Under the pieces are notes generated by a model that had not been told where the DNA came from, ran no database searches, and worked only from the letters and a program-made list of their open reading frames with translations. The position numbers and the translations under genes are program-made. DNA of 42,976 nt from a virus. Numbering within the stretch: the first letter of the stretch is position 1; each line of letters starts with the position of its first letter. The stretch spans positions 1 to 42,976 of IMG/VR virus record IMGVR_UViG_3300045988_151420; one strand, given 5' to 3'. This document shows, piece after piece, positions 8,192 to 20,917 of the stretch.

Positions 8192-9808
8192 TCAGCCTAT
8201 TGGTGTTTTGGTGACGCCGGGCAGCTTAATGTTGCGCTTAACCCTGTTCCTTGTATTGGGCGCGTTATTAAGGTTCAGGTTATTGTCATTACCGTTGCCG
8301 CCATTGTTATTGACGGCGTTATCGTCACCATTGTTGTTGGCCGCGTCACCATTATCGGCGTTCTCGCCGTTCTCGCCGTTCTCACCCACGGTGTTCTCAT
8401 TGTTCGTGGCGGCGAGAGCACGATCAAGCAAAGACACCGCATTCTTCTTGCGGTTCTCAGCATTAATGTCTGCGAGATCATCCTCGGTGAGCCCGGCACG
8501 CCGCATGAGAGTCTGCGACTCCTGCAATGACGGGAACGCGGACACCATTTTGACCGCGAAATCGGCGGCAGACGACGGCGAGGAATAGCGGGCGGGGGTC
8601 CACTTCACCGAGGTCTTCCACGACTCCTGCGGCGGCTCGTCAAGCTTGTCCCGGACCATAATAATGTTCTGCAGCGTACGCCGCAACGGGGCCGTGAAAA
8701 TACGCCACTGATACTCAGCTTCGTCCGCGAGCGCCGCCTCAGCCGCCTGCATCGCCTCGGCCGAGGCGGGGTTCTCCGCGAATACTCCAATGGCGGACTG
8801 AGGAATGTTTGTGGCCGCGCACAAATTCTGCGCCAGCTGACGGTACATTTCCAGGTGAGGGCTCATGGTCATTTGTGAGAATTGCCCAATCGACGGAATG
8901 TCGCCGTTCTCGTTCGGCTCAAGCACCTGTACTCGGGCCATGATTGCGGACCACCTGTCCTGGCCGGCAAAATCTGCTCTTTCTGCGCCGAGCACGTACC
9001 GTTGCGGTGAGGAGAAGAATTCGGCGGAGGTTTCTGCGCGGACCATTGTCCTCACTGCCGCGTCCGTGAGGTACCTTACTTCGCGGGTGATTCGTGAATG
9101 CCCCAGAGGACGGTTCAGTTGCGGGTCGTAGCAGAGTGCTTCGACGAAAATGCGGTTGGGTGTGTCTCCTAGTTTTTCGGCTTTCCATCCGCTGCCGTTT
9201 TCTTTGGCGTCGATTCGCCAAATGGCGGTGGGGGTGTGCATGATGGCGCCGGCCGGCTGCCCGTATTTGTCGGTCTGATCAATTGTGAGGGCTGCCTCGA
9301 TTATGCGACGCCTAGTGTCCCATAGTGCTGCGGACCATTCCGCGTCACGGGCTTGCACGACGACGGGCGGTTCGCCGATGGTTTCGTCACCGCGTGTCAC
9401 TGTGATTAGCGAGAAAGAGTGCTTGTAGGCGGACGTTATCGCCTGTGCGAGATCGAGGTCGTAGTTGTTTGCGGAGAGTATTTCGTTTGCTTCGAAAGCG
9501 TCGGGAGCGCCGTTAAGGGAGTAGCCTTCGAACACGTGCCGGCGGGCGAGCATGGTGACGACTTTCTGAGGCCACCCAAGCGCGGCTTTGGTGCGCGTCA
9601 TTTGCGGTGGAATACTGATACCGAGGTCCTGGAAAGCGCGGTGGCCGTCATAGTAGACGGAGAGCAGCTTGTTTTTGTTCGAGTGCTGCTGCCATTTCTG
9701 CCACAGTTGCAGGAATGTTACCTTGTCTTCGTTGGGGAGTCCTGAAATGCTGGTCGGTGGCGGCGTGGCGTTAACGAGTCGTCCGTCGTCAGGATAAATT
9801 TCAGTCAT
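8192..9808 (-). CDS. Portal protein.
   Basis: 538-aa ORF overlapping the large terminase stop by 4 nt. The C-terminal tail is rich in Asn/Gly/Asp. Confidence 0.85.
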   Translation of the reverse strand: MTEIYPDDGRLVNATPPPTSISGLPNEDKVTFLQLWQKWQQHSNKNKLLSVYYDGHRAFQDLGISIPPQMTRTKAALGWPQKVVTMLARRHVFEGYSLNGAPDAFEANEILSANNYDLDLAQAITSAYKHSFSLITVTRGDETIGEPPVVVQARDAEWSAALWDTRRRIIEAALTIDQTDKYGQPAGAIMHTPTAIWRIDAKENGSGWKAEKLGDTPNRIFVEALCYDPQLNRPLGHSRITREVRYLTDAAVRTMVRAETSAEFFSSPQRYVLGAERADFAGQDRWSAIMARVQVLEPNENGDIPSIGQFSQMTMSPHLEMYRQLAQNLCAATNIPQSAIGVFAENPASAEAMQAAEAALADEAEYQWRIFTAPLRRTLQNIIMVRDKLDEPPQESWKTSVKWTPARYSSPSSAADFAVKMVSAFPSLQESQTLMRRAGLTEDDLADINAENRKKNAVSLLDRALAATNNENTVGENGENGENADNGDAANNNGDDNAVNNNGGNGNDNNLNLNNAPNTRNRVKRNIKLPGVTKTPIG

Positions 9809-11298
9809 AGGAACAGTACTCCGCCGCCACGATCATTTCTACTATTGGCGTTTTCGATTTTATCATAAGGCTTGTAACGGGGGCGTCTTTTTGTTGTGCG
9901 TGCGGCCCACATTGCGAGCGTGCACGCTTCTAGGCCGGCTACTGTGGCGCCGGGCGGGGCTTGTAGCGCCCATCCTCCGGACGTTCCGATTGGGCGCGGC
10001 GTCGCAGAAGCGGCCTCAGTCCGCAATTCCATGTCGTCCAGGTGCGTGATTGTGTTTTCGCGTAGTGAGGCGTCTAGCATGCTGTAAGCGTCTATGATTT
10101 GCGTGATCGTGGGCGTGATGATGACTTGCGGGCGTACTCCGATCGAACGGAGTCTTTCGATTGTGTCTCCGGCACCGTATTTTCCGTCTACGATGATTTG
10201 CGCCCACCTATCTTTTGTGTCCGCAATGTAGTCGATGATCCATTGTGTGCCCTCGCTCATGCGGCGTACGCCTTGGTGTGTGCAGAGTTCAACATGGGTT
10301 GGCGTGTTTGCCTTGTGTCCCGCTCTGGCTAGGGCGCAGGTTGATCCGTCGGGTGCGAATCGGATTGCGGCGCACCATCGCATACCACTGGGAGTGTTTT
10401 CTGGCCGTATTGTGGCGGTGTTCCAGGCGACGGGGTCGATTGCGAGCCTGTCGTTGGCGCGGTCCCATATTCCGAGGCCTTCACGTCGGAATGATTCTTC
10501 GCCGAGCTGCCGGCGCATTCTTAGAATGGCGGATTCGGGTGTGCGGCGCGGGTATGATGGGTTTGCTTTTTCCCATTGTTTCCTGTCGTCGCTGTTGGCG
10601 TTATAGTCGGCGGCCAACTCCAAATAGAGGCCGTCTTTTATTTCGCCTTGTAGTGCGAGGTTGCGGAATTCGCTGAACGCTTCTGATGGGTCTTTTGGTT
10701 TTGGTGGTGTCCCGATTTTGATGATGAGCGGATCAGGGGCGGTGTTTGTGGCGGGGATCATGTCGTCTAGTGCGGCTGCACCTAGAATCTGGGCTTCGTC
10801 GAAGAGGATCATGTCTACGCCGTGGAATCCGCGTCCGAATCCGCCTTCGCGGGCTCCGAAGAGGATTCGTGATCCATTGTTGAAGAGGATGGCTTGTTGC
10901 CCGTTTGCTTGTCGTATTTTGTTTACGTAGGGGGCGATTTCGGGGATTTGTGCCATTCCTTTCATGTCGTTGAATGTTTCGTCTGCGGTGCGTGTTCTGT
11001 GTGCGGTCCAGAGGACGAAGTAGTTGGGGTGGATGGTGGCGAGTGCGAATGTGAGGCCGCCGATTGTGTATGTTTTGCCGACCTGACGAGGAATGGATGC
11101 TTGGATTCCGTCGATGCTGGCTGCGTAGTGGCCGTCGTTTCTTTTTGCGAGGATTGCTTTGAGCCAGTCTTGTTGCCATATGTCGAGAGGGTATTGCATT
11201 TCTTGGAGGCGGCGTTGGACGGGCGGCCAGGCGGTGTGTGTGATGTTTTCGGGGAGGGTGAGGTGGGCGGCGATTTCGGATAGGTGTTTTTCGCTCAT
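9805..11298 (-). CDS. terL: Terminase large subunit.
   Basis: 497 aa with a Walker A-like IPRQVGKT and a Walker B-like MILFDEAQ; it lies upstream of the portal gene. Confidence 0.9.
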   Translation of the reverse strand: MSEKHLSEIAAHLTLPENITHTAWPPVQRRLQEMQYPLDIWQQDWLKAILAKRNDGHYAASIDGIQASIPRQVGKTYTIGGLTFALATIHPNYFVLWTAHRTRTADETFNDMKGMAQIPEIAPYVNKIRQANGQQAILFNNGSRILFGAREGGFGRGFHGVDMILFDEAQILGAAALDDMIPATNTAPDPLIIKIGTPPKPKDPSEAFSEFRNLALQGEIKDGLYLELAADYNANSDDRKQWEKANPSYPRRTPESAILRMRRQLGEESFRREGLGIWDRANDRLAIDPVAWNTATIRPENTPSGMRWCAAIRFAPDGSTCALARAGHKANTPTHVELCTHQGVRRMSEGTQWIIDYIADTKDRWAQIIVDGKYGAGDTIERLRSIGVRPQVIITPTITQIIDAYSMLDASLRENTITHLDDMELRTEAASATPRPIGTSGGWALQAPPGATVAGLEACTLAMWAARTTKRRPRYKPYDKIENANSRNDRGGGVLFL

Positions 11299-11299
11299 T

Positions 11300-11581
11300 T
11301 TAGATGCCGTCCCAGGTTTGTGTTTCGTTTGGAATGTTGGCGGTGTGTGTGGTGGTGTTTTCGTTTTGTGTGGTGGCGAGTTGGTCTGTGATTTGTATGA
11401 GTTGTGCGGTGAGTTTTGTGAGTGCGGTGTCGCCTGTTCTGGGGTCGTCTATGACGGTGGCGATTTTGTGTGCGAGTGCTTGGCGGATGAGGGTTGGGTT
11501 GCCGGTGTTTGTGGCGTCTGTGATGGGTGCGGGGGAGTTGGGTTCGTATACGGTGATTGTGGTGTTTGTGTGGGTTGTCAT
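11300..11581 (-). CDS. Hypothetical protein; candidate small terminase by position only.
   Basis: 93-aa ORF ending 2 nt before terL. It has a helical central part and Thr/Asn-rich ends. Confidence 0.5.
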   Translation of the reverse strand: MTTHTNTTITVYEPNSPAPITDATNTGNPTLIRQALAHKIATVIDDPRTGDTALTKLTAQLIQITDQLATTQNENTTTHTANIPNETQTWDGI

Positions 11582-11588
11582 GTCTTCT

Positions 11589-11594
11589 ATTATA
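11589..11594 (-). promoter_or_regulatory. Perfect TATAAT -10 hexamer 7 nt upstream of the ATG at 11581 (leaderless-type arrangement).
   Basis: Minus strand reads ccacaTATAATagaagacATG. No Shine-Dalgarno sequence is present. Confidence 0.4.
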
Positions 11595-11624: not shown

Positions 11625-11750
11625 TTTTCCACAGGGTTATCCACAAGTCTAGGGTTTTCCACAGGGTTTTCCACAGGTTGGAGAGTTTTCCACATGATGG
11701 CGCTCACATTGTGACGTGGGTTACTGGAGTTATCCACAGGGTTTTCCACA
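11625..11750 (+). promoter_or_regulatory. Cluster of seven DnaA-box-like 9-mers, TT(A/T)TCCACA, all in the same orientation.
   Basis: TTTTCCACA at 11625, 11655, 11667, 11686 and 11742. TTATCCACA at 11637 and 11730. Three pairs are spaced 12 bp apart. Confidence 0.7.
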
Positions 11751-11885
11751 AGCGGGGAGGGATGGGCAGACCTTCGGGGTGTTCGCGGCCGGATGGGGGA
11801 GGGGGAGTGGCCCCCATCACACATTTGCTGTGGTGTGTGTCTTGTTTTGTTGTGTTCCCTGTCTTGTTTTGTGACGTGGGTCCTA

Positions 11886-11921
11886 CTTTAAGGGATCCCT
11901 TACTCCTTTAAGGGATCCCTT
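11886..11921. promoter_or_regulatory. Two direct copies of CTTTAAGGGATCCCTT, 20 bp apart, each with a palindromic AAGGGATCCCTT core.
   Basis: Copies at 11886-11901 and 11906-11921. The first extends to the 14-bp palindrome TAAGGGATCCCTTA. Confidence 0.6.
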
Positions 11922-11949: not shown

Positions 11950-12245
11950 TTTTCGAACGCCATTGTTGTTTCATGCCTTTGAATGTTTTTGCATGTTTTT
12001 GTAACATTTCTTTTGTTTTTATGTATTTTTGTGCGTTTGTGCGTTGTGTTGCCTTTGCGGCATGCGTTGGCACCGTGCATGGCGCATGGTATTGGTATGC
12101 ATGTCATGCATCACATCGTCATCGTCGTGTTCATCATCATGTTGATCATGTTCATCATGATGATGATTGATCGTCATGATGTTCATCGTTCATTGTTCGT
12201 TGATCATTCATTGAACACTGATTATCGTTGATCATGTTGATCGTG
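11950..12245. other. AT/T-rich tract with five TTGATC(A/G)T repeats and a 12-bp TCATCATGATGA palindrome.
   Basis: Counted G+C: 10 of 50 in 11981-12030 and 22 of 60 in 12121-12180. Repeats at 12142, 12167, 12200, 12228 and 12237. Palindrome at 12152-12163. Confidence 0.6.
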
Positions 12246-12324
12246 ATTGTTTGTTGGTTGTGTGAACGTGAACGGTGTGAGGTGAGGTGAGTGGGTGGTG
12301 TCCGTCTCTCTTCAGTGTGTGGTG

Positions 12325-13333
12325 TGTGGAATGGCGGTGGGGTGTGCTGCTAGTCCACCTCAGTCCGTGATGCGGCCAGTGCTCTGCCCATCCTGGTGCA
12401 GTACTCGTCAGTGCTGCGGTCGTGTCGTGTGCTATTCGTTGCCAGGCGTTGTGGTGTGTGGGTGGTGAGTGTGTCTCTGTGCTGTTCGTGCAGTGGGGTA
12501 TCCTCTGTCCGCTTCCCCCTCGTCGTGGTGGTGGGTGGGGGCATTGTGGATGGTGGGGTGGCATGACGAGGTGGGGTGGCATTGCGATGGAAGGGCGGTG
12601 GTGCAGGTGCGGGTCCTCCGTCTAGTGTTGGTGTCCCCCTTGTTTAGTATCGGCGTCCCCCTTGTTGTTTGTGTGGTGGCCGTGTTGAAGGGCGGGGCGT
12701 GTGGTGCGTGGGGGTCCCCGCGTTCGGATTGGGTCCGTCCTCTTCGCATTGTTCCTGCCCTTCTTCTGTTTTGTGTTGCCATGTCTGTTGCAGGGGGCGG
12801 AGGAAGTGTGGTGGTGTGCGGCGGTGTGTTGTCTACTATCGCACAGTGTTGTGCGTGTGGTGTGTGTTACGAATGGCGATGGTGTGTGGGTGTGGTGGGA
12901 CTGGTCCCGCTATTCTCTTCTGTCTTTGTGTTTGCTGTCACAGTGTTGTTGGTTTAGTGGTGTGTTTTTGTGTCAGGGTTGTGTCATTGTGGAATGGCGG
13001 TGATGGTTGTGTTGGGTAGAAGAGCGGTGGTGTCTACTGTCTACGCACCGTTTGTGTTGCGGTGTGCGTTGTAGTGGTGTGCGTTGTGTTACGTCATGTT
13101 GTGTTGTGTTGTGGAATGGCGGTGGGGTGTTGTGTTGTCTTTCTTGTCCGCTTCTCTCTTTTTCTCTTTCTCTTTGTGTTGGTGTTCGGGGTAGTGCGCG
13201 CGCAGCTTTGCGAGCACGCGCGTTATCCCCGAACACCATTGTGTTCTCTTGTTGTTCTGTCTTCTCTTCTCTTCTCTTCTAGCTCCGCTCTTTCATCACC
13301 CGCTCTTCTTCTGTTATTGAATGGCGGTGGTGT
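12325..13333 (+). repeat. Dispersed array of about 8 copies of (T)GGAA(T/G)GGCGGTGG, all in the same orientation.
   Basis: Copies near 12325, 12587, 12685, 12869, 12988, 13018, 13109 and 13316. Confidence 0.65.
13181..13237. repeat. Long hairpin, copy A of a three-member family.
   Basis: 11-bp outer stem ggtgttcgggg/ccccgaacacc around the core tagtgcgcgcgcagctttgcgagcacgc. Confidence 0.65.
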
Positions 13334-13336
13334 GAT

Positions 13337-13681
13337 TTACCATGTATCACTGTGTTGTGTTGGCATGACAGCTACGGGTAGCCTGTCTCTTTCCCCTTCG
13401 TTTTTCCGGTAGTGGCGTGCTCTTCCTTTGCCTCCTCGTCCGTTGCCTCGTCTGCTGTTGCATTTGGCGCATAATACTCGCCCGTTGTCTGGGTGGTTGG
13501 TTCCGCCTAACGAGGCGGGGATTATGTGGTCTGCCTCAGCGCTGTTGGGTTTGCGTTCGCCGTTGTTTGTGTATTGGAGTTTGACTCCGCATGCTGGGCA
13601 GTGTGTGATGCCGAGCTGTTGTGCTCTGGCTAGTACTTGTTTTCTGAATTGTTTGTGTTCTCGGATGCTTGTTCTGCTCAT
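13337..13681 (-). CDS. HNH endonuclease.
   Basis: 114 aa with HCPACG...EADHIIPASLGGTNHPDNGRVLCAKCNSRRG; GAAGGA lies before the ATG. Confidence 0.9.
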   Translation of the reverse strand: MSRTSIREHKQFRKQVLARAQQLGITHCPACGVKLQYTNNGERKPNSAEADHIIPASLGGTNHPDNGRVLCAKCNSRRGNGRGGKGRARHYRKNEGERDRLPVAVMPTQHSDTW

Positions 13682-13849: not shown

Positions 13850-13909
13850 GGCGTGTGTTGTGTAGTGCGCGCGCAGCTTTGCGAGCACGCACGTAACACA
13901 ACGCACGCC
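13850..13909. repeat. Long hairpin, copy B.
   Basis: The 28-nt core at 13863-13890 is identical to 13192-13219. A different 13-bp outer stem (13850-13862 / 13897-13909) still pairs. Confidence 0.65.
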
Positions 13910-19349: not shown

Positions 19350-20917
19350 GTGTTGAGAAGATTGCGGATTATGGGTTCGCGTCCCCGGACGGGGGTGTGC
19401 GCTATGATTGGTTCGCTGATAGGGTTATTGACTATTTGCAGTCCAGGTCGCCGGAGACGCCGCCCCGGTTTCTGTGGACGACTTTCTTGACGATGGTGTC
19501 CGCCCCGTTGTCTGCTAGGACTCATTTGTCCGCGAACGCGCAGAATATGGTGCCGTTGACACTGTATTCGCACTGCCTAGGGGCATCCACCTTGTCGAGG
19601 AAGACTACGGCACAGTCTTTGGTGCGCGGTTTCTTTGACGATTGCGTGGACGCGTTCAGGTGGGATTCGTCTAAGTCTTTGGCGGCAGTGCGGGAGTGTG
19701 ATTCGGCGCTCCACATGCTGTATCGTCGTTTGGAATCCCTGGAGAGAAAGGGCGGCCGTATTGATATTGACGAGTATCGGACAGAGCGGGACGATATCAA
19801 TAATCGTATCGCCGAGTTTGAGGCTGATCGTAAGGACTTGCTGAACAGTATTGATAATAGCCCGTGCGAGCGGTCTCTTATGGCGAATGTTTTGTTCGGG
19901 TCTAATGTGACGGCTGAGGGTTTGAATCTTCGGATGGCGCAGCGGCCGGGCGGGGCGTCTATCATGTTTGTGGACGAACTACAGAATATGTATTCCGCGT
20001 CACAGGGGGAGGGGTATCGTAGCGGGCTCATCGGGTTCCTGACCGATGTTTACTCGGGTAAAACGGTTGAGTCCGTGCGTGTTGGTGATGACGGCGTCAG
20101 GCGGGCGGACAGTGAGAGAGTTCCTCATTCTCTTGCTTTCTGCGGCACGGGGATTCTCGGCGACGTAGTCGATAACATGTCACAGTCTTTGTTTGAGACT
20201 GGGTGGGGTCCGCGCATTCTTTTTGCGTTGGATGAGGGGGGTCGCCGGTCTGATCCTTCGTCTTTCGGATGGGTCACCAACAATCGTCAGGGCGCGAATG
20301 GTGGTGATGGTTTTATTGAGCATGCTTCCGAGCACATTTCCAATATGCTGGGGATGATGCAGCACGAATTCCGTGGCACTGTCACTTGCGCCACCGAGTT
20401 CTGGTCCGTCAACACACCAATGACTATGACCGTGACCGAGTCGGCCCGGAATGTTTGGGTGGAAACGATGCGAGCCTGGGCTGGGGAAGCGGCCCGTGAG
20501 TCGCCTTTCCAGCGGGCGGTGCAGGCGGTCATTGACCGCATGGGGAACCATATTATGCGCGTGGCCGCTATTCTGTCTCTTTTCGAGCAGCAGATGAGCG
20601 TGTCGTCGTCTGCTGTGAGGAAAGCTTTCAGTCTGGCGTCCGATTTCTGGTTGCCTGACGCACTGAAAATGGTTGATTATGTTTTTGTTCCGGATTTGAC
20701 GCGTATGGTGGATGATTTCAGTAGTAATCCGCCGACTGAGACGCGTTTGTATCAGGTTTTGGAGGCGAAGAATTTGTCTCCTCGTAGTGTGGAGGAGTAT
20801 CGGCAGTATATTCTTCGTCGGGGCGTGAAGTTTCAGACGGAAGGGGCTATTGTGGATAATGATCTCGTGGAGGCGATTCTGCGGGATCAGATAGCGGAAC
20901 CGTCGTACAGTGAGTGA
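19346..20917 (+). CDS. DUF3987-like replicative helicase / primase-associated protein.
   Basis: 523 aa with a TTG start after GGAGGTGGAG. The family call is from recalled sequence character and from the adjacent primase. Confidence 0.5.
   Translation: MSVEKIADYGFASPDGGVRYDWFADRVIDYLQSRSPETPPRFLWTTFLTMVSAPLSARTHLSANAQNMVPLTLYSHCLGASTLSRKTTAQSLVRGFFDDCVDAFRWDSSKSLAAVRECDSALHMLYRRLESLERKGGRIDIDEYRTERDDINNRIAEFEADRKDLLNSIDNSPCERSLMANVLFGSNVTAEGLNLRMAQRPGGASIMFVDELQNMYSASQGEGYRSGLIGFLTDVYSGKTVESVRVGDDGVRRADSERVPHSLAFCGTGILGDVVDNMSQSLFETGWGPRILFALDEGGRRSDPSSFGWVTNNRQGANGGDGFIEHASEHISNMLGMMQHEFRGTVTCATEFWSVNTPMTMTVTESARNVWVETMRAWAGEAARESPFQRAVQAVIDRMGNHIMRVAAILSLFEQQMSVSSSAVRKAFSLASDFWLPDALKMVDYVFVPDLTRMVDDFSSNPPTETRLYQVLEAKNLSPRSVEEYRQYILRRGVKFQTEGAIVDNDLVEAILRDQIAEPSYSE

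What the first reader, a model, noticed from the sequence alone, without database searches (positions are those of the whole stretch)
11625..11750. Seven same-orientation DnaA boxes upstream of the packaging operon
Within 126 bp I read seven 9-mers that fit the DnaA box TT(A/T)TCCACA.
- Two are the perfect consensus TTATCCACA (11637 and 11730).
- Five are TTTTCCACA (11625, 11655, 11667, 11686 and 11742).
- All are on the same strand, and three pairs are exactly 12 bp apart.
- The array lies about 44 to 170 bp upstream of a TATAAT-N7-ATG leaderless-type start (11594-11579) for the first packaging gene.
- It is also next to an AT-rich tract (11950-12245).

The phage encodes a primase and helicases, but I recognised no origin-binding initiator. 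Three readings are possible: a DnaA-dependent phage origin, a DnaA sink that perturbs host initiation (datA-like), or DnaA-gated late transcription. A phage-encoded protein that binds this 12-bp unit is an alternative.
Basis: partly seen in the sequence, partly recalled or inferred. Interest (0 to 1): 0.8.

Follow-up and report, generated by a model that had tools for sequence, protein, structure and literature searches.

The report
DnaA-box array beside phage cos end
Seven perfect binding sites for the bacterial replication initiator DnaA sit in the first 150 bp of this phage's chromosome, between the cohesive end and the packaging genes. Unrelated phages carry similar arrays at the same kind of place, which suggests that phages use host DnaA at their genome ends in a way not yet described.

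Summary
Seven same-strand TTWTCCACA boxes lie at 11625-11750, against 0.6 expected by chance in the whole window.

The physical left end (cos) lies at 11768, 18 bp beyond the last box. The order is HNH, cos, array, TerS, TerL.

About 60 close IMG/VR relatives keep 5-9 boxes. Only box position 3 varies, and the spacers drift.

Phages of Rothia, Arthrobacter and Propionibacterium (TerL 41-50% identical) keep one box 19-21 nt from their published left ends.

The box flanks and the 12-bp spacing match those in bacterial oriC regions. The same tandem unit recurs next to contig ends, upstream of terminase genes, in many unrelated viral contigs. Arthrobacter phage Tiff81 has four boxes between HNH and its right end.

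Best reading: these are genuine host-DnaA sites forming a cos-flanking, cosB/IHF-like accessory element. I give the DnaA binding ~0.75-0.8 and the cos role ~0.4. No binding was tested.

Rivals are DnaA gating of late transcription, a DnaA-dependent origin, sites for a phage protein, and a DnaA sink.

Novelty: new variant of a known kind. Interest: 0.68.

The parts
11625..11645 (+). DnaA-box pair 1 (TTTTCCACA-GGG-TTATCCACA), the pair nearest TerS. Its box centres lie about -48 and -60 from the TerS start.
   Evidence: This module type varies in copy number among relatives.
11655..11675 (+). DnaA-box pair 2 (TTTTCCACA-GGG-TTTTCCACA).
11686..11694 (+). Single DnaA box (TTTTCCACA).
   Evidence: Present in nearly all relatives.
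11704..11714 (.). Conserved palindrome TCACA-T-TGTGA in the 35-bp spacer between the single box and the terminal pair.
   Evidence: Read from the sequence. TCACATTGTG is largely conserved in the 19-sequence alignment. Its binder is unknown.
11730..11750 (+). Terminal DnaA-box pair (TTATCCACA-GGG-TTTTCCACA). It is invariant across relatives and is part of the cos core.
   Evidence: conservation 0.99.
11751..11768 (-). First 18 nt of the physical left end. On the gene strand it reads TGCCCATCCCTCCCCGCT (C-run), homologous to the AGCGAT-ATCTCCCC ends of cultured relatives.
   Evidence: Eight contigs start at this base. One contig has an Illumina adapter remnant fused to it. Ends of relatives.
11769..11778 (.). 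Inferred 10-nt 3' cohesive overhang (CCCCGAAGGT on the gene strand).
   Evidence: Fold-back chimeric contigs L038 and L056 have their breakpoint at 11778|11763. Homologous to the right end of Spartoi...GAACACCCCCCGGCGAT. The length is inferred, not measured.
11779..11821 (.). Right-end cos flank with a G-run/C-run hairpin (GGGGGAGGGGGAGTGGCCCCC), nearly invariant.
   Evidence: Analogous G/C hairpins lie at the right ends of Spartoi, MrSmee, G4 and Tiff81.
11589..11594 (-). TATAAT seven nt upstream of the TerS ATG (candidate leaderless promoter). It is invariant in the family.
   Evidence: Not called by the consensus scan.
11300..11581 (-). Small terminase-like gene (93 aa, predicted two helices plus an acidic ETQTWDGI tail).
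   Evidence: phrog_1459, E = 4e-5. Aligns with gp1/gp2 of relatives at 17-28% identity.
9805..11298 (-). Large terminase gene.
   Evidence: tblastn hit to annotated terminases, 46-50% identity.
13337..13681 (-). HNH endonuclease gene. It marks an HK97-style HNH-cos-TerS-TerL packaging module.
   Evidence: phrog_338, E = 4e-16. An HNH gene is the last gene in Spartoi, MrSmee, G4 and Tiff81.
11950..12245 (.). AT-rich, repeat-rich conserved non-coding tract on the right-end side of cos. Its role is unknown (candidate unwinding or regulatory region).
   Evidence: GC 0.32-0.44. Repeat families D2 and D4. About 0.9 conserved in 29 relatives.

Best explanation
The seven repeats are genuine high-affinity binding sites for the host initiator DnaA. 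They occupy nt 19-144 of the phage's left cohesive end, between the cos cut site (11768/11769) and the TerS-TerL genes.

Proposed mechanism: on circularised or concatemeric DNA, DnaA molecules bind the seven boxes. All boxes point the same way and sit on roughly one face of the helix. Bound DnaA oligomerises and bends or wraps about 130 bp next to cos. This nucleoprotein block acts like lambda cosB with IHF. It is a host-factor-built architectural element that positions or licenses the TerS/TerL/HNH complex for cos recognition and cutting. The modules nearest TerS may also influence the adjacent TerS promoter.

Shown here:
- the sites, their conservation and their phasing;
- the physical end;
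- homology of the cos module with cultured phages;
- the oriC-like character of the sites;
- recurrence beside unrelated terminases.

Inferred: that DnaA binds (about 0.75-0.8). The packaging-accessory role is further inference and gives the overall confidence stated.
For: 1. The sites are real and non-random.

2. A physical end lies 18 bp from the last box.
- Eight independent IMG/VR contigs start at window 11768.
- One contig carries an Illumina adapter remnant fused to that base.
- Two contigs are fold-back chimeras at 11778|11763.

3. The terminal pair lies inside a 90-bp stretch (11732-11821) that is 97-99% conserved in 29 distinct relatives. Surrounding non-coding DNA is 62-92% conserved.
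- 58 of 63 box columns are invariant, against 34 of 63 spacer columns.
- Copy number varies from 5 to 9, but same-face phasing is kept, with R = 0.73-0.89 at 10.5 bp per turn.

4. More distant phages keep one TTTTCCACA 19-21 nt from their published left ends, after a homologous C-run. In each, HNH is the last gene.
- Rothia phage Spartoi, Arthrobacter phages MrSmee and AbbyDaisy and P. freudenreichii phage G4 have TerL 46-50% identical.
- L063 has TerL 41% identical and carries the same motif at an internal cos junction.
- Sources.

5. The reader of the sites is probably not TerS.
- The TerS homologues are only 17-28% identical to ours.
- The same TerS family occurs in BruceB, which has no box.
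- Tiff81 and L085 have unrelated TerS and TerL, yet carry 4 and 11 boxes beside the end.

6. The sites look like those in oriC.
- The tandem unit occurs in at least 120 bacterial genomes. Of these loci, 29 have dnaA, dnaN, yidC or mnmE within the 8-kb stretch.
- Boxes in those 29 loci share R at -2, G at -1 and G at +1, and 12 bp is their commonest spacing (phage boxes).
- The only variable position is box position 3, as in the Schaper-Messer consensus.

7. The arrays recur in unrelated phages.
- 28 of 101 unrelated viral contigs carrying the unit have it within 600 bp of a contig end.
- In 20 of 23 contigs with a detectable TerL, it lies 0.2-2.5 kb upstream of TerL.
- Those TerLs belong to several PHROG families.
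- Neighbouring genes are HNH, RusA, EndoVII, VRR-NUC and terminase.
Against: - No binding was tested. The host is unknown, and its oriC could not be fetched.
- I know of no precedent for DnaA in phage packaging, and the literature searches found none.
- Box orientation relative to the end is inverted here compared with Spartoi, MrSmee and G4. It is not fixed among unrelated phages (13 versus 7).
- In Tiff81 the boxes are on the other side of cos. This fits a loose architectural role, but it equally fits a role unrelated to the cut itself.
- Relatives further out (mycobacteriophage clusters K, G and N; C. acnes phages) keep the end and the C-run, but have a T/A-run where the box would be. A DnaA box is therefore not essential to this cos type.
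- The extra modules lie next to a conserved TATAAT, which suits promoter control.
- Contig-end enrichment in metagenome assemblies can be inflated by assembly breaks at repeats.
- The unrelated contigs were found by searching for the motif itself, so they show recurrence, not frequency.
Confidence: 0.4

Rival explanations
1. DnaA-gated late expression. DnaA bound to the array represses, blocks or activates transcription entering TerS-TerL. That transcription could come from the TATAAT at 11594-11589 or read through from the HNH side across the joined cos. As phage copies accumulate, DnaA is titrated away and late genes and packaging switch on.
For: - The array spans about -44 to -170 from a family-invariant TATAAT-N7-ATG.
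- In unrelated phages the arrays lie between the end of the early nuclease genes (RusA, HNH, EndoVII, VRR-NUC) and the terminase genes. That is where late promoters usually sit.
- From general knowledge: DnaA is a known transcription factor and roadblock, and it affects lambda pR.
Against: - In MrSmee and AbbyDaisy the single box is followed directly by a Shine-Dalgarno sequence and the start codon, with no room for a promoter. The box still keeps its distance from the end.
- Box orientation relative to transcription is not fixed.
- No -35 element was found.
- The terminal pair is conserved together with cos rather than with the promoter.
Confidence: 0.2
2. DnaA-dependent replication origin, or DnaA-assisted priming site. 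It would form when cos is joined, with the array plus the AT-rich tract (11950-12245) acting as an oriC-like unit.
For: - The sites are oriC-type in sequence, flanks and spacing.
- An AT-rich, repeat-rich, conserved non-coding tract lies 200 bp away.
- No initiator-like domain was found in the early genes scanned.
- In one unrelated contig the array abuts a helicase gene (L096).
Against: - No AT-rich element or DnaA-trio-like run abuts the boxes. The adjacent sequence is GC-rich (GC 0.62-0.63) and contains the cos cut.
- The phage has its own DUF3987 primase/helicase, a second helicase and recombination genes.
- Relatives have a single box.
- From general knowledge: T5 also carries terminal box pairs, yet its origins map elsewhere.
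- Variable orientation and side are hard to reconcile with directional unwinding.
Confidence: 0.15
3. The repeats are sites for a phage-encoded protein (TerS, HNH or an unknown early protein), and the DnaA-box likeness is coincidental or mimicry. This would be a classical cosB.
For: - The position between cosN and TerS is exactly where lambda R sites lie.
- Direct repeats suit ring-shaped TerS oligomers.
- The T-run/CCAC element after the C-run is a degenerate feature of the wider terminase family, including phages where it is not a DnaA box.
Against: - The 9-mer is unchanged while TerS diverges to 17-28% identity.
- Identical units flank non-homologous TerS and TerL.
- The match extends to the flanks, the spacing and the one degenerate position of real oriC boxes.
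- TerS here is a 93-aa protein predicted as two helices, and no DnaA-domain-IV-like domain was found in any ORF scanned.
- From general knowledge: seven consensus boxes would be bound by DnaA in the cell regardless.
Confidence: 0.1
4. DnaA sink (datA-like). The array has no local function and simply titrates DnaA to stop host initiation as phage copies rise.
For: - The array is seven consensus boxes on a genome that multiplies.
- Copy number of boxes varies from 5 to 9 between strains.
Against: - It does not explain the fixed offset from the end in six lineages.
- It does not explain why the terminal pair is conserved with the cos core.
- It does not explain the recurrent placement beside ends and terminases in unrelated phages.
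- Relatives have one box only.
Confidence: 0.07
5. End-handling during entry. The array would tether or pause the DNA end at membrane-bound DnaA, as proposed for the T5 injection stop signal, or would shield the end from exonucleases.
For: - T5-like phages carry DnaA-box pairs separated by 3 bp in their terminal repeat (10.1101/866236).
- Cultured phages with different end types carry the unit near record starts or ends.
Against: - By analogy with lambda, the TerS-proximal end is packaged first and enters last, so it is a poor place for an entry signal.
- The T5 model is itself untested.
- The inverted-repeat architecture of the T5 iss is absent here.
Confidence: 0.05

Closest known systems
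Lambda cosB with its IHF site I1 (host factor-assisted terminase assembly next to cosN)
   Same: Repeated protein-binding sites lie between the cos cut and the small-terminase gene. A host DNA-bending protein is proposed as the architectural cofactor. The element is conserved together with the cut site.
   Different: The sites match DnaA boxes, not gpNu1 R sites or IHF sites. All are in direct orientation. Copy number is 5-9. The TerS is unrelated. In other phages the array can lie on either side of cos. No biochemical evidence exists.
DnaA-box pairs in the T5 injection-stop (iss) region (Heusterspreute 1987, as cited by Davison; Davison 2020, bioRxiv 10.1101/866236)
   Same: Consensus DnaA boxes occur in pairs separated by 3 bp. 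They lie in non-coding DNA near a phage genome terminus and are conserved across relatives. They are argued not to be the origin.
   Different: In T5 the pairs sit in inverted repeats (IRC/IRD) with 52-bp spacers, several kb inside a long direct terminal repeat. Many of them are degenerate. Here the boxes are perfect, all in one orientation, 18 bp from a cohesive end and next to the terminase genes.
oriC DnaA-box arrays (DnaA oligomerisation regions) of bacteria
   Same: The 9-mer, the flanking preferences (R at -2, G at -1, G at +1) and the dominant 12-bp (and 11-bp) head-to-tail spacing are the same.
   Different: There is no adjacent unwinding element or DnaA-trio run and no dnaA/dnaN context. 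The array lies on a phage chromosome end.
DnaA boxes used by other replicons and titration loci (P1 oriR, pSC101, F, RK2; lambda pR/ori region; E. coli datA)
   Same: Clusters of consensus boxes on extrachromosomal or non-origin DNA exploit host DnaA.
   Different: Those clusters accompany a Rep protein's iterons or an IHF site and have mapped replication or titration roles. None is described at a cos site. This comparison rests on general knowledge and was not tested here.

Membership tests
DnaA-box cluster (sites for bacterial DnaA) | 9-mer matching TT(A/T)TNCACA | tested here: met
   Seven of seven are exact in the window. Of 348 boxes found in relatives with one mismatch allowed, 338 are TTWTCCACA.
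DnaA-box cluster (sites for bacterial DnaA) | Flanks and spacing like boxes in authenticated origin regions | tested here: met
   In 29 dnaA/dnaN/yidC/mnmE-linked loci: G at -1 67%, R at -2 85%, G at +1 59%, commonest spacing 12 bp. Phage boxes: G at -1 100%, R at -2 100%, G at +1 63%, pairs at 12 bp.
DnaA-box cluster (sites for bacterial DnaA) | Bound by the host's DnaA | not testable with these tools
   Needs EMSA, footprinting or ChIP.
oriC-type (DnaA-dependent) origin | AT-rich unwinding element or DnaA-trios directly adjacent to an oriented box | tested here: not met
   The sequence flanking the array on the cos side has GC 0.62-0.63 and contains the cut site. On the other side is the TerS promoter region. 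The nearest AT-rich DNA starts 200 bp away.
oriC-type (DnaA-dependent) origin | Replication starts there | not testable with these tools
   Needs marker-frequency or 2-D gel mapping.
cosB-type terminase recognition region | Repeated sites between the cos cut and the small-terminase gene | tested here: met
   The end is at 11768, the boxes are at 11625-11750, and TerS starts at 11581.
cosB-type terminase recognition region | Sites are read by the phage's own TerS, so they should change as TerS changes | tested here: not met
   The same 9-mer occurs with TerS 17-28% identical and with non-homologous TerS in Tiff81 and L085. The same TerS family occurs without a box in BruceB. Binding itself was not tested.
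T5 iss-type terminal DnaA-box element | Box pairs with 3-bp spacer near a terminus | tested here: met
   Three pairs have a GGG spacer, and the last box ends 18 bp from the end. T5 description.
T5 iss-type terminal DnaA-box element | Pairs embedded in inverted repeats (IRC/IRD) with a 52-bp spacer inside a long direct terminal repeat | tested here: not met
   All boxes are in one orientation. The genome has cohesive ends, and no terminal repeat was seen.
datA-like DnaA sink | Cluster of high-affinity boxes plus an IHF site that promotes DnaA-ATP hydrolysis or titration | tested here: inconclusive
   The box cluster is present. IHF-type sites cannot be assessed for an unknown actinobacterial host. 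A sink does not explain the positional conservation.

The most novel reading that the evidence does not exclude
Arrays of DnaA boxes flanking the cos/pac region and terminase genes are a widespread, so far unrecognised class of phage cis-element. They occur in lineages with unrelated packaging enzymes, including actinophages of Rothia, Arthrobacter and Propionibacterium, and many uncultured phages. Through them phages would read or exploit the host initiator DnaA at their chromosome ends. For example, DnaA could license cos cutting and late expression only after genome copies have titrated it away, which would couple packaging to replication.
Probability: 0.3. Interest if true: 0.85.

Novelty: new variant of a known kind. 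Interest (0 to 1): 0.68.

Why it matters
Host factors at phage packaging sites are known essentially from lambda and IHF. DnaA is known to phage biology as a replication or transcription cofactor. A conserved DnaA-box array built into a cos site would add a new host dependency to packaging or late-gene timing, and a possible way for phages to sense replication state.

The array recurs beside unrelated terminases and in cultured phages whose ends are published (Spartoi, MrSmee, AbbyDaisy, G4, Tiff81). This has three practical consequences:
- It gives a cheap sequence marker for physical genome ends in metagenomic phage contigs.
- It makes the idea directly testable in tractable systems, because Arthrobacter and Propionibacterium phages are in culture.
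- It bears on the untested proposal that the T5 terminal DnaA boxes have a function.

Tried and rejected
- **Near-identity search.** Megablast of the region against GenBank phages found nothing.
- **Phage-encoded DnaA-like binder.** Pfam and PHROG scans of about 30 early and right-end ORFs found no Bac_DnaA_C or other initiator domain.
- **TerS fold.** TerS homologues exist only within the close family. The AlphaFold model has pLDDT 52.8 and shows two helices only, so it was not used for fold search.
- **Known RNAs.** Rfam gave no hit in the window.
- **Consensus promoter scan.** It did not call the TATAAT upstream of TerS.
- **Prophage context.** Using the TerL seeds, none of the 120 bacterial-genome loci carrying the tandem unit had a detectable TerL. 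The terminase association is therefore seen in viral contigs and phage records only.
- **Host oriC comparison.** It could not be done.
- **DnaA-trio or unwinding element next to the array.** None was seen by eye.
- **Fixed box orientation relative to TerL.** Rejected; the split is 13 versus 7.
- **Literature.** Searches for DnaA boxes at cos sites, terminases or actinophage ends found only the T5 preprint.

Full report
**Observation.**
- TTWTCCACA occurs 8 times in the window, against 0.62 +/- 0.81 in shuffles. The eighth copy is at 20851 on the - strand, and nothing else in the window forms a cluster.
- Pairs at 11625/11637, 11655/11667 and 11730/11742 are 12 bp apart.
- TATAAT (11594-11589) followed by seven nt and the ATG (11581-11579) is present on the - strand.
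- The tract 11950-12250 has GC 0.32-0.44.

**What the window is.** It is a ~43 kb, ~55% GC tailed-phage genome with no close relative in GenBank phages.
- On the - strand lie TerL (9805-11298; 46-50% identical to terminases of Arthrobacter, Rothia and P. freudenreichii phages), a 93-aa TerS-like gene (11300-11581) and an HNH endonuclease (13337-13681).
- Replication and recombination genes are on the + strand: DUF3987 primase/helicase, a second helicase, an exonuclease and Sak4.
- No DnaA-like or other initiator domain was found in the ORFs scanned.

**The array sits at the physical left end.** IMG/VR holds about 60 close relatives with TerL 94-99% identical, mostly from one very large sample (3300045988) plus samples with HMP-style numbers. 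This fits a human-associated actinobacterial host, but that is inference.
- Eight independent contigs begin at the same base, window 11768, reading TGCCCATCCCTCCC(C/T)GCT and then the first box.
- In a ninth contig (L045) that base is fused to an Illumina adapter remnant (CTGAACCGCTCTTCCGATCT).
- Two others (L038, L056) are fold-back chimeras with the breakpoint at 11778|11763.
- I infer a cohesive end with a 10-nt 3' overhang (11769-11778). The boxes then occupy nt 19-144 of the left end, in the order HNH ... cos - array - TerS - TerL.

**Conservation in the family.**
- Every relative with the region intact has 5-9 boxes. They are built from a variable number of pair modules, then a single box, then a 35-bp spacer with a TCACATTGTGA palindrome, then an invariant terminal pair.
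- In a 19-sequence alignment, 58 of 63 box columns are invariant against 34 of 63 spacer columns.
- Over 348 boxes only position 3 varies (T 75%, A 24%, G 1%). G at -1 is 100% and G at +2 is 98%.
- The stretch 11732-11821 (terminal pair, cut site and a G/C hairpin) is 97-99% conserved. It is the most conserved non-coding DNA of the region.
- All copy-number variants keep the boxes on about one helical face, with R = 0.73-0.89 at 10.5 bp per turn. Random placements reach the window's value in 4% of trials.

**More distant relatives.**
- Rothia phage Spartoi, Arthrobacter phages MrSmee and AbbyDaisy and P. freudenreichii phage G4 start AGCGAT-ATCTCCCC-NNN-TTTTTTCCACA. The box begins at nt 19-21, as here (nt 19). 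HNH is their last gene, and a G/C hairpin precedes the right end.
- The right ends are homologous: ours ends ...CGCGAACACCCCGAAGGT and Spartoi ...GACGAACACCCCCCGGCGAT.
- L063 (TerL 41% identical) has the same motif at an internal cos junction.
- In our phage the box is inverted relative to the end and has been multiplied.
- Further out (mycobacteriophage clusters K, G and N; C. acnes phages), the end and C-run persist, but a T/A-run replaces the box.

**Are these really DnaA sites?**
- The tandem unit TTWTCCACAGGGTTWTCCACA occurs in at least 120 bacterial genomes from many phyla.
- In 29 of those 120 loci, dnaA, dnaN, yidC or mnmE lies within the 8-kb stretch, usually with 8-17 boxes around.
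- The other boxes in those 29 loci prefer R at -2, G at -1 and G at +1. Their commonest same-strand spacing is 12 bp, then 11 bp. The phage units have the same properties.
- A 71% GC Nocardiopsis origin region mixes TTATCCACA, TTGTCCACA and TTTTCCACA, so A or T at position 3 is used by actinobacteria too.
- Established knowledge of DnaA (nanomolar affinity for consensus boxes, conserved domain IV) makes binding in vivo very likely. This is still inference.

**Recurrence beside unrelated packaging genes.**
- The same unit is in at least 101 viral contigs outside this family. In 28 of them it is within 600 bp of a contig end.
- Seven of the ten large ORFs tested next to such ends are TerLs of different PHROG families.
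- With a seed-limited TerL search, 20 of 23 TerL-bearing loci have the array 0.2-2.5 kb upstream of TerL.
- Immediate neighbours are RusA, HNH, EndoVII, VRR-NUC and terminase domains.
- L085 has 11 boxes, including TTGTCCACA, starting 32 nt from its contig end.
- Arthrobacter phage Tiff81 has four boxes between the HNH stop codon and its right end. Seahorse has a similar match in the same position, though I did not read its sequence.
- Microbacterium phages have a pair about 340 nt from the left end.
- Several Klebsiella T7-like records have the unit at their start.
- The TerS and TerL of Tiff81 and L085 show no similarity to ours. The family's own TerS proteins are 17-28% identical, and the same TerS family occurs without a box in BruceB.
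- A protein common to all these hosts explains this better than a lineage-specific phage protein.

**Mechanism.**
- The constant feature in six lineages is the distance of a box from the cut site and its conservation with the cos core.
- Orientation and side are flexible, as expected for an architectural or bending cofactor.
- Some relatives have an A/T-run at the same place, which could bend DNA intrinsically.
- I therefore favour a cos-flanking, DnaA-built accessory element analogous to lambda cosB plus IHF (confidence 0.4).
- The TerS-proximal modules are well placed to affect the conserved TATAAT promoter as well, so DnaA gating of late genes is the main rival (0.2).
- An origin (0.15) is disfavoured by GC-rich flanks, the 200-bp gap to AT-rich DNA, the phage's own primase/helicase and the single-box relatives.
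- A phage-protein site (0.1), a pure sink (0.07) and an entry or end-tethering role like that proposed for T5 (0.05) remain possible.

**Comparison with what is known, and novelty.**
- The only literature precedent found for DnaA-box pairs with 3-bp spacers near a phage terminus is the T5 iss region. That function is a hypothesis, and the architecture is different.
- Searches for DnaA boxes together with cos sites, terminases or actinophages found nothing.
- I rate this a new variant of a known kind: a DnaA-box cluster on a phage chromosome, in a new and recurrent context.

**Limits.**
- There are no binding data, and the host is not identified.
- The metagenomic end enrichment may be partly assembly-driven.
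- The unrelated contigs were ascertained through the motif itself.

Noticed in passing
window 11885-11921: There are two copies of the 12-bp perfect palindrome AAGGGATCCCTT, 19 bp apart start to start, together forming a 14-pair hairpin. They are about 0.9 conserved in relatives. This could be an operator for a dimeric regulator or a structural element on the right-end side of cos.
   Followed up: partly
window 12062-12121: This 60-bp stretch is 97% conserved among 29 relatives and is rich in GCATGC/ATGCAT palindromes. It lies inside otherwise ~85-90% conserved non-coding DNA. Its function is unknown.
   Followed up: no
window 12120-12250: This is a dense set of overlapping direct and inverted repeats of TGTTCATCATGATGATGAT-like units in the AT-rich tract (families D2, D4, I6 and I16). 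It could be iterons or an unwinding region of the real origin.
   Followed up: partly
window 13182-13223 and 13853-13894: A 42-nt repeat (88% identical) containing the GC-rich palindrome GTGCGCGCGCAGCTTTGCGAGCACGCGCG flanks the HNH gene on both sides. It may mark terminators or the borders of a mobile HNH cassette.
   Followed up: no
window 12319-13335: There are four to five copies of a 16-26 nt repeat, TTGTGGAATGGCGGTGGGGTG, spread through the strongly G+T-skewed 1.5 kb between HNH and cos. Cultured relatives have only 50-150 bp there.
   Followed up: no
window 20851-20859 (- strand): The only other consensus box (TTATCCACA) lies at the junction of the DUF3987 primase/helicase gene and the next gene. 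It may be chance.
   Followed up: no
L045 nt 1-20; L038 and L056 nt 1-116 and 1-38: Public IMG/VR contigs of this phage carry an Illumina adapter remnant and fold-back chimeras at the genome end. These are assembly artefacts, but here they serve as evidence for the physical terminus.
   Followed up: yes
L078 (rc) about nt 195-400; L120; L106: Unrelated viral contigs carry very long same-orientation arrays with 11-12 bp periodicity: L078 has about 12 boxes allowing one mismatch, L120 has 13 and L106 has 9. Microviridae records also carry the tandem unit in non-coding DNA.
   Followed up: partly
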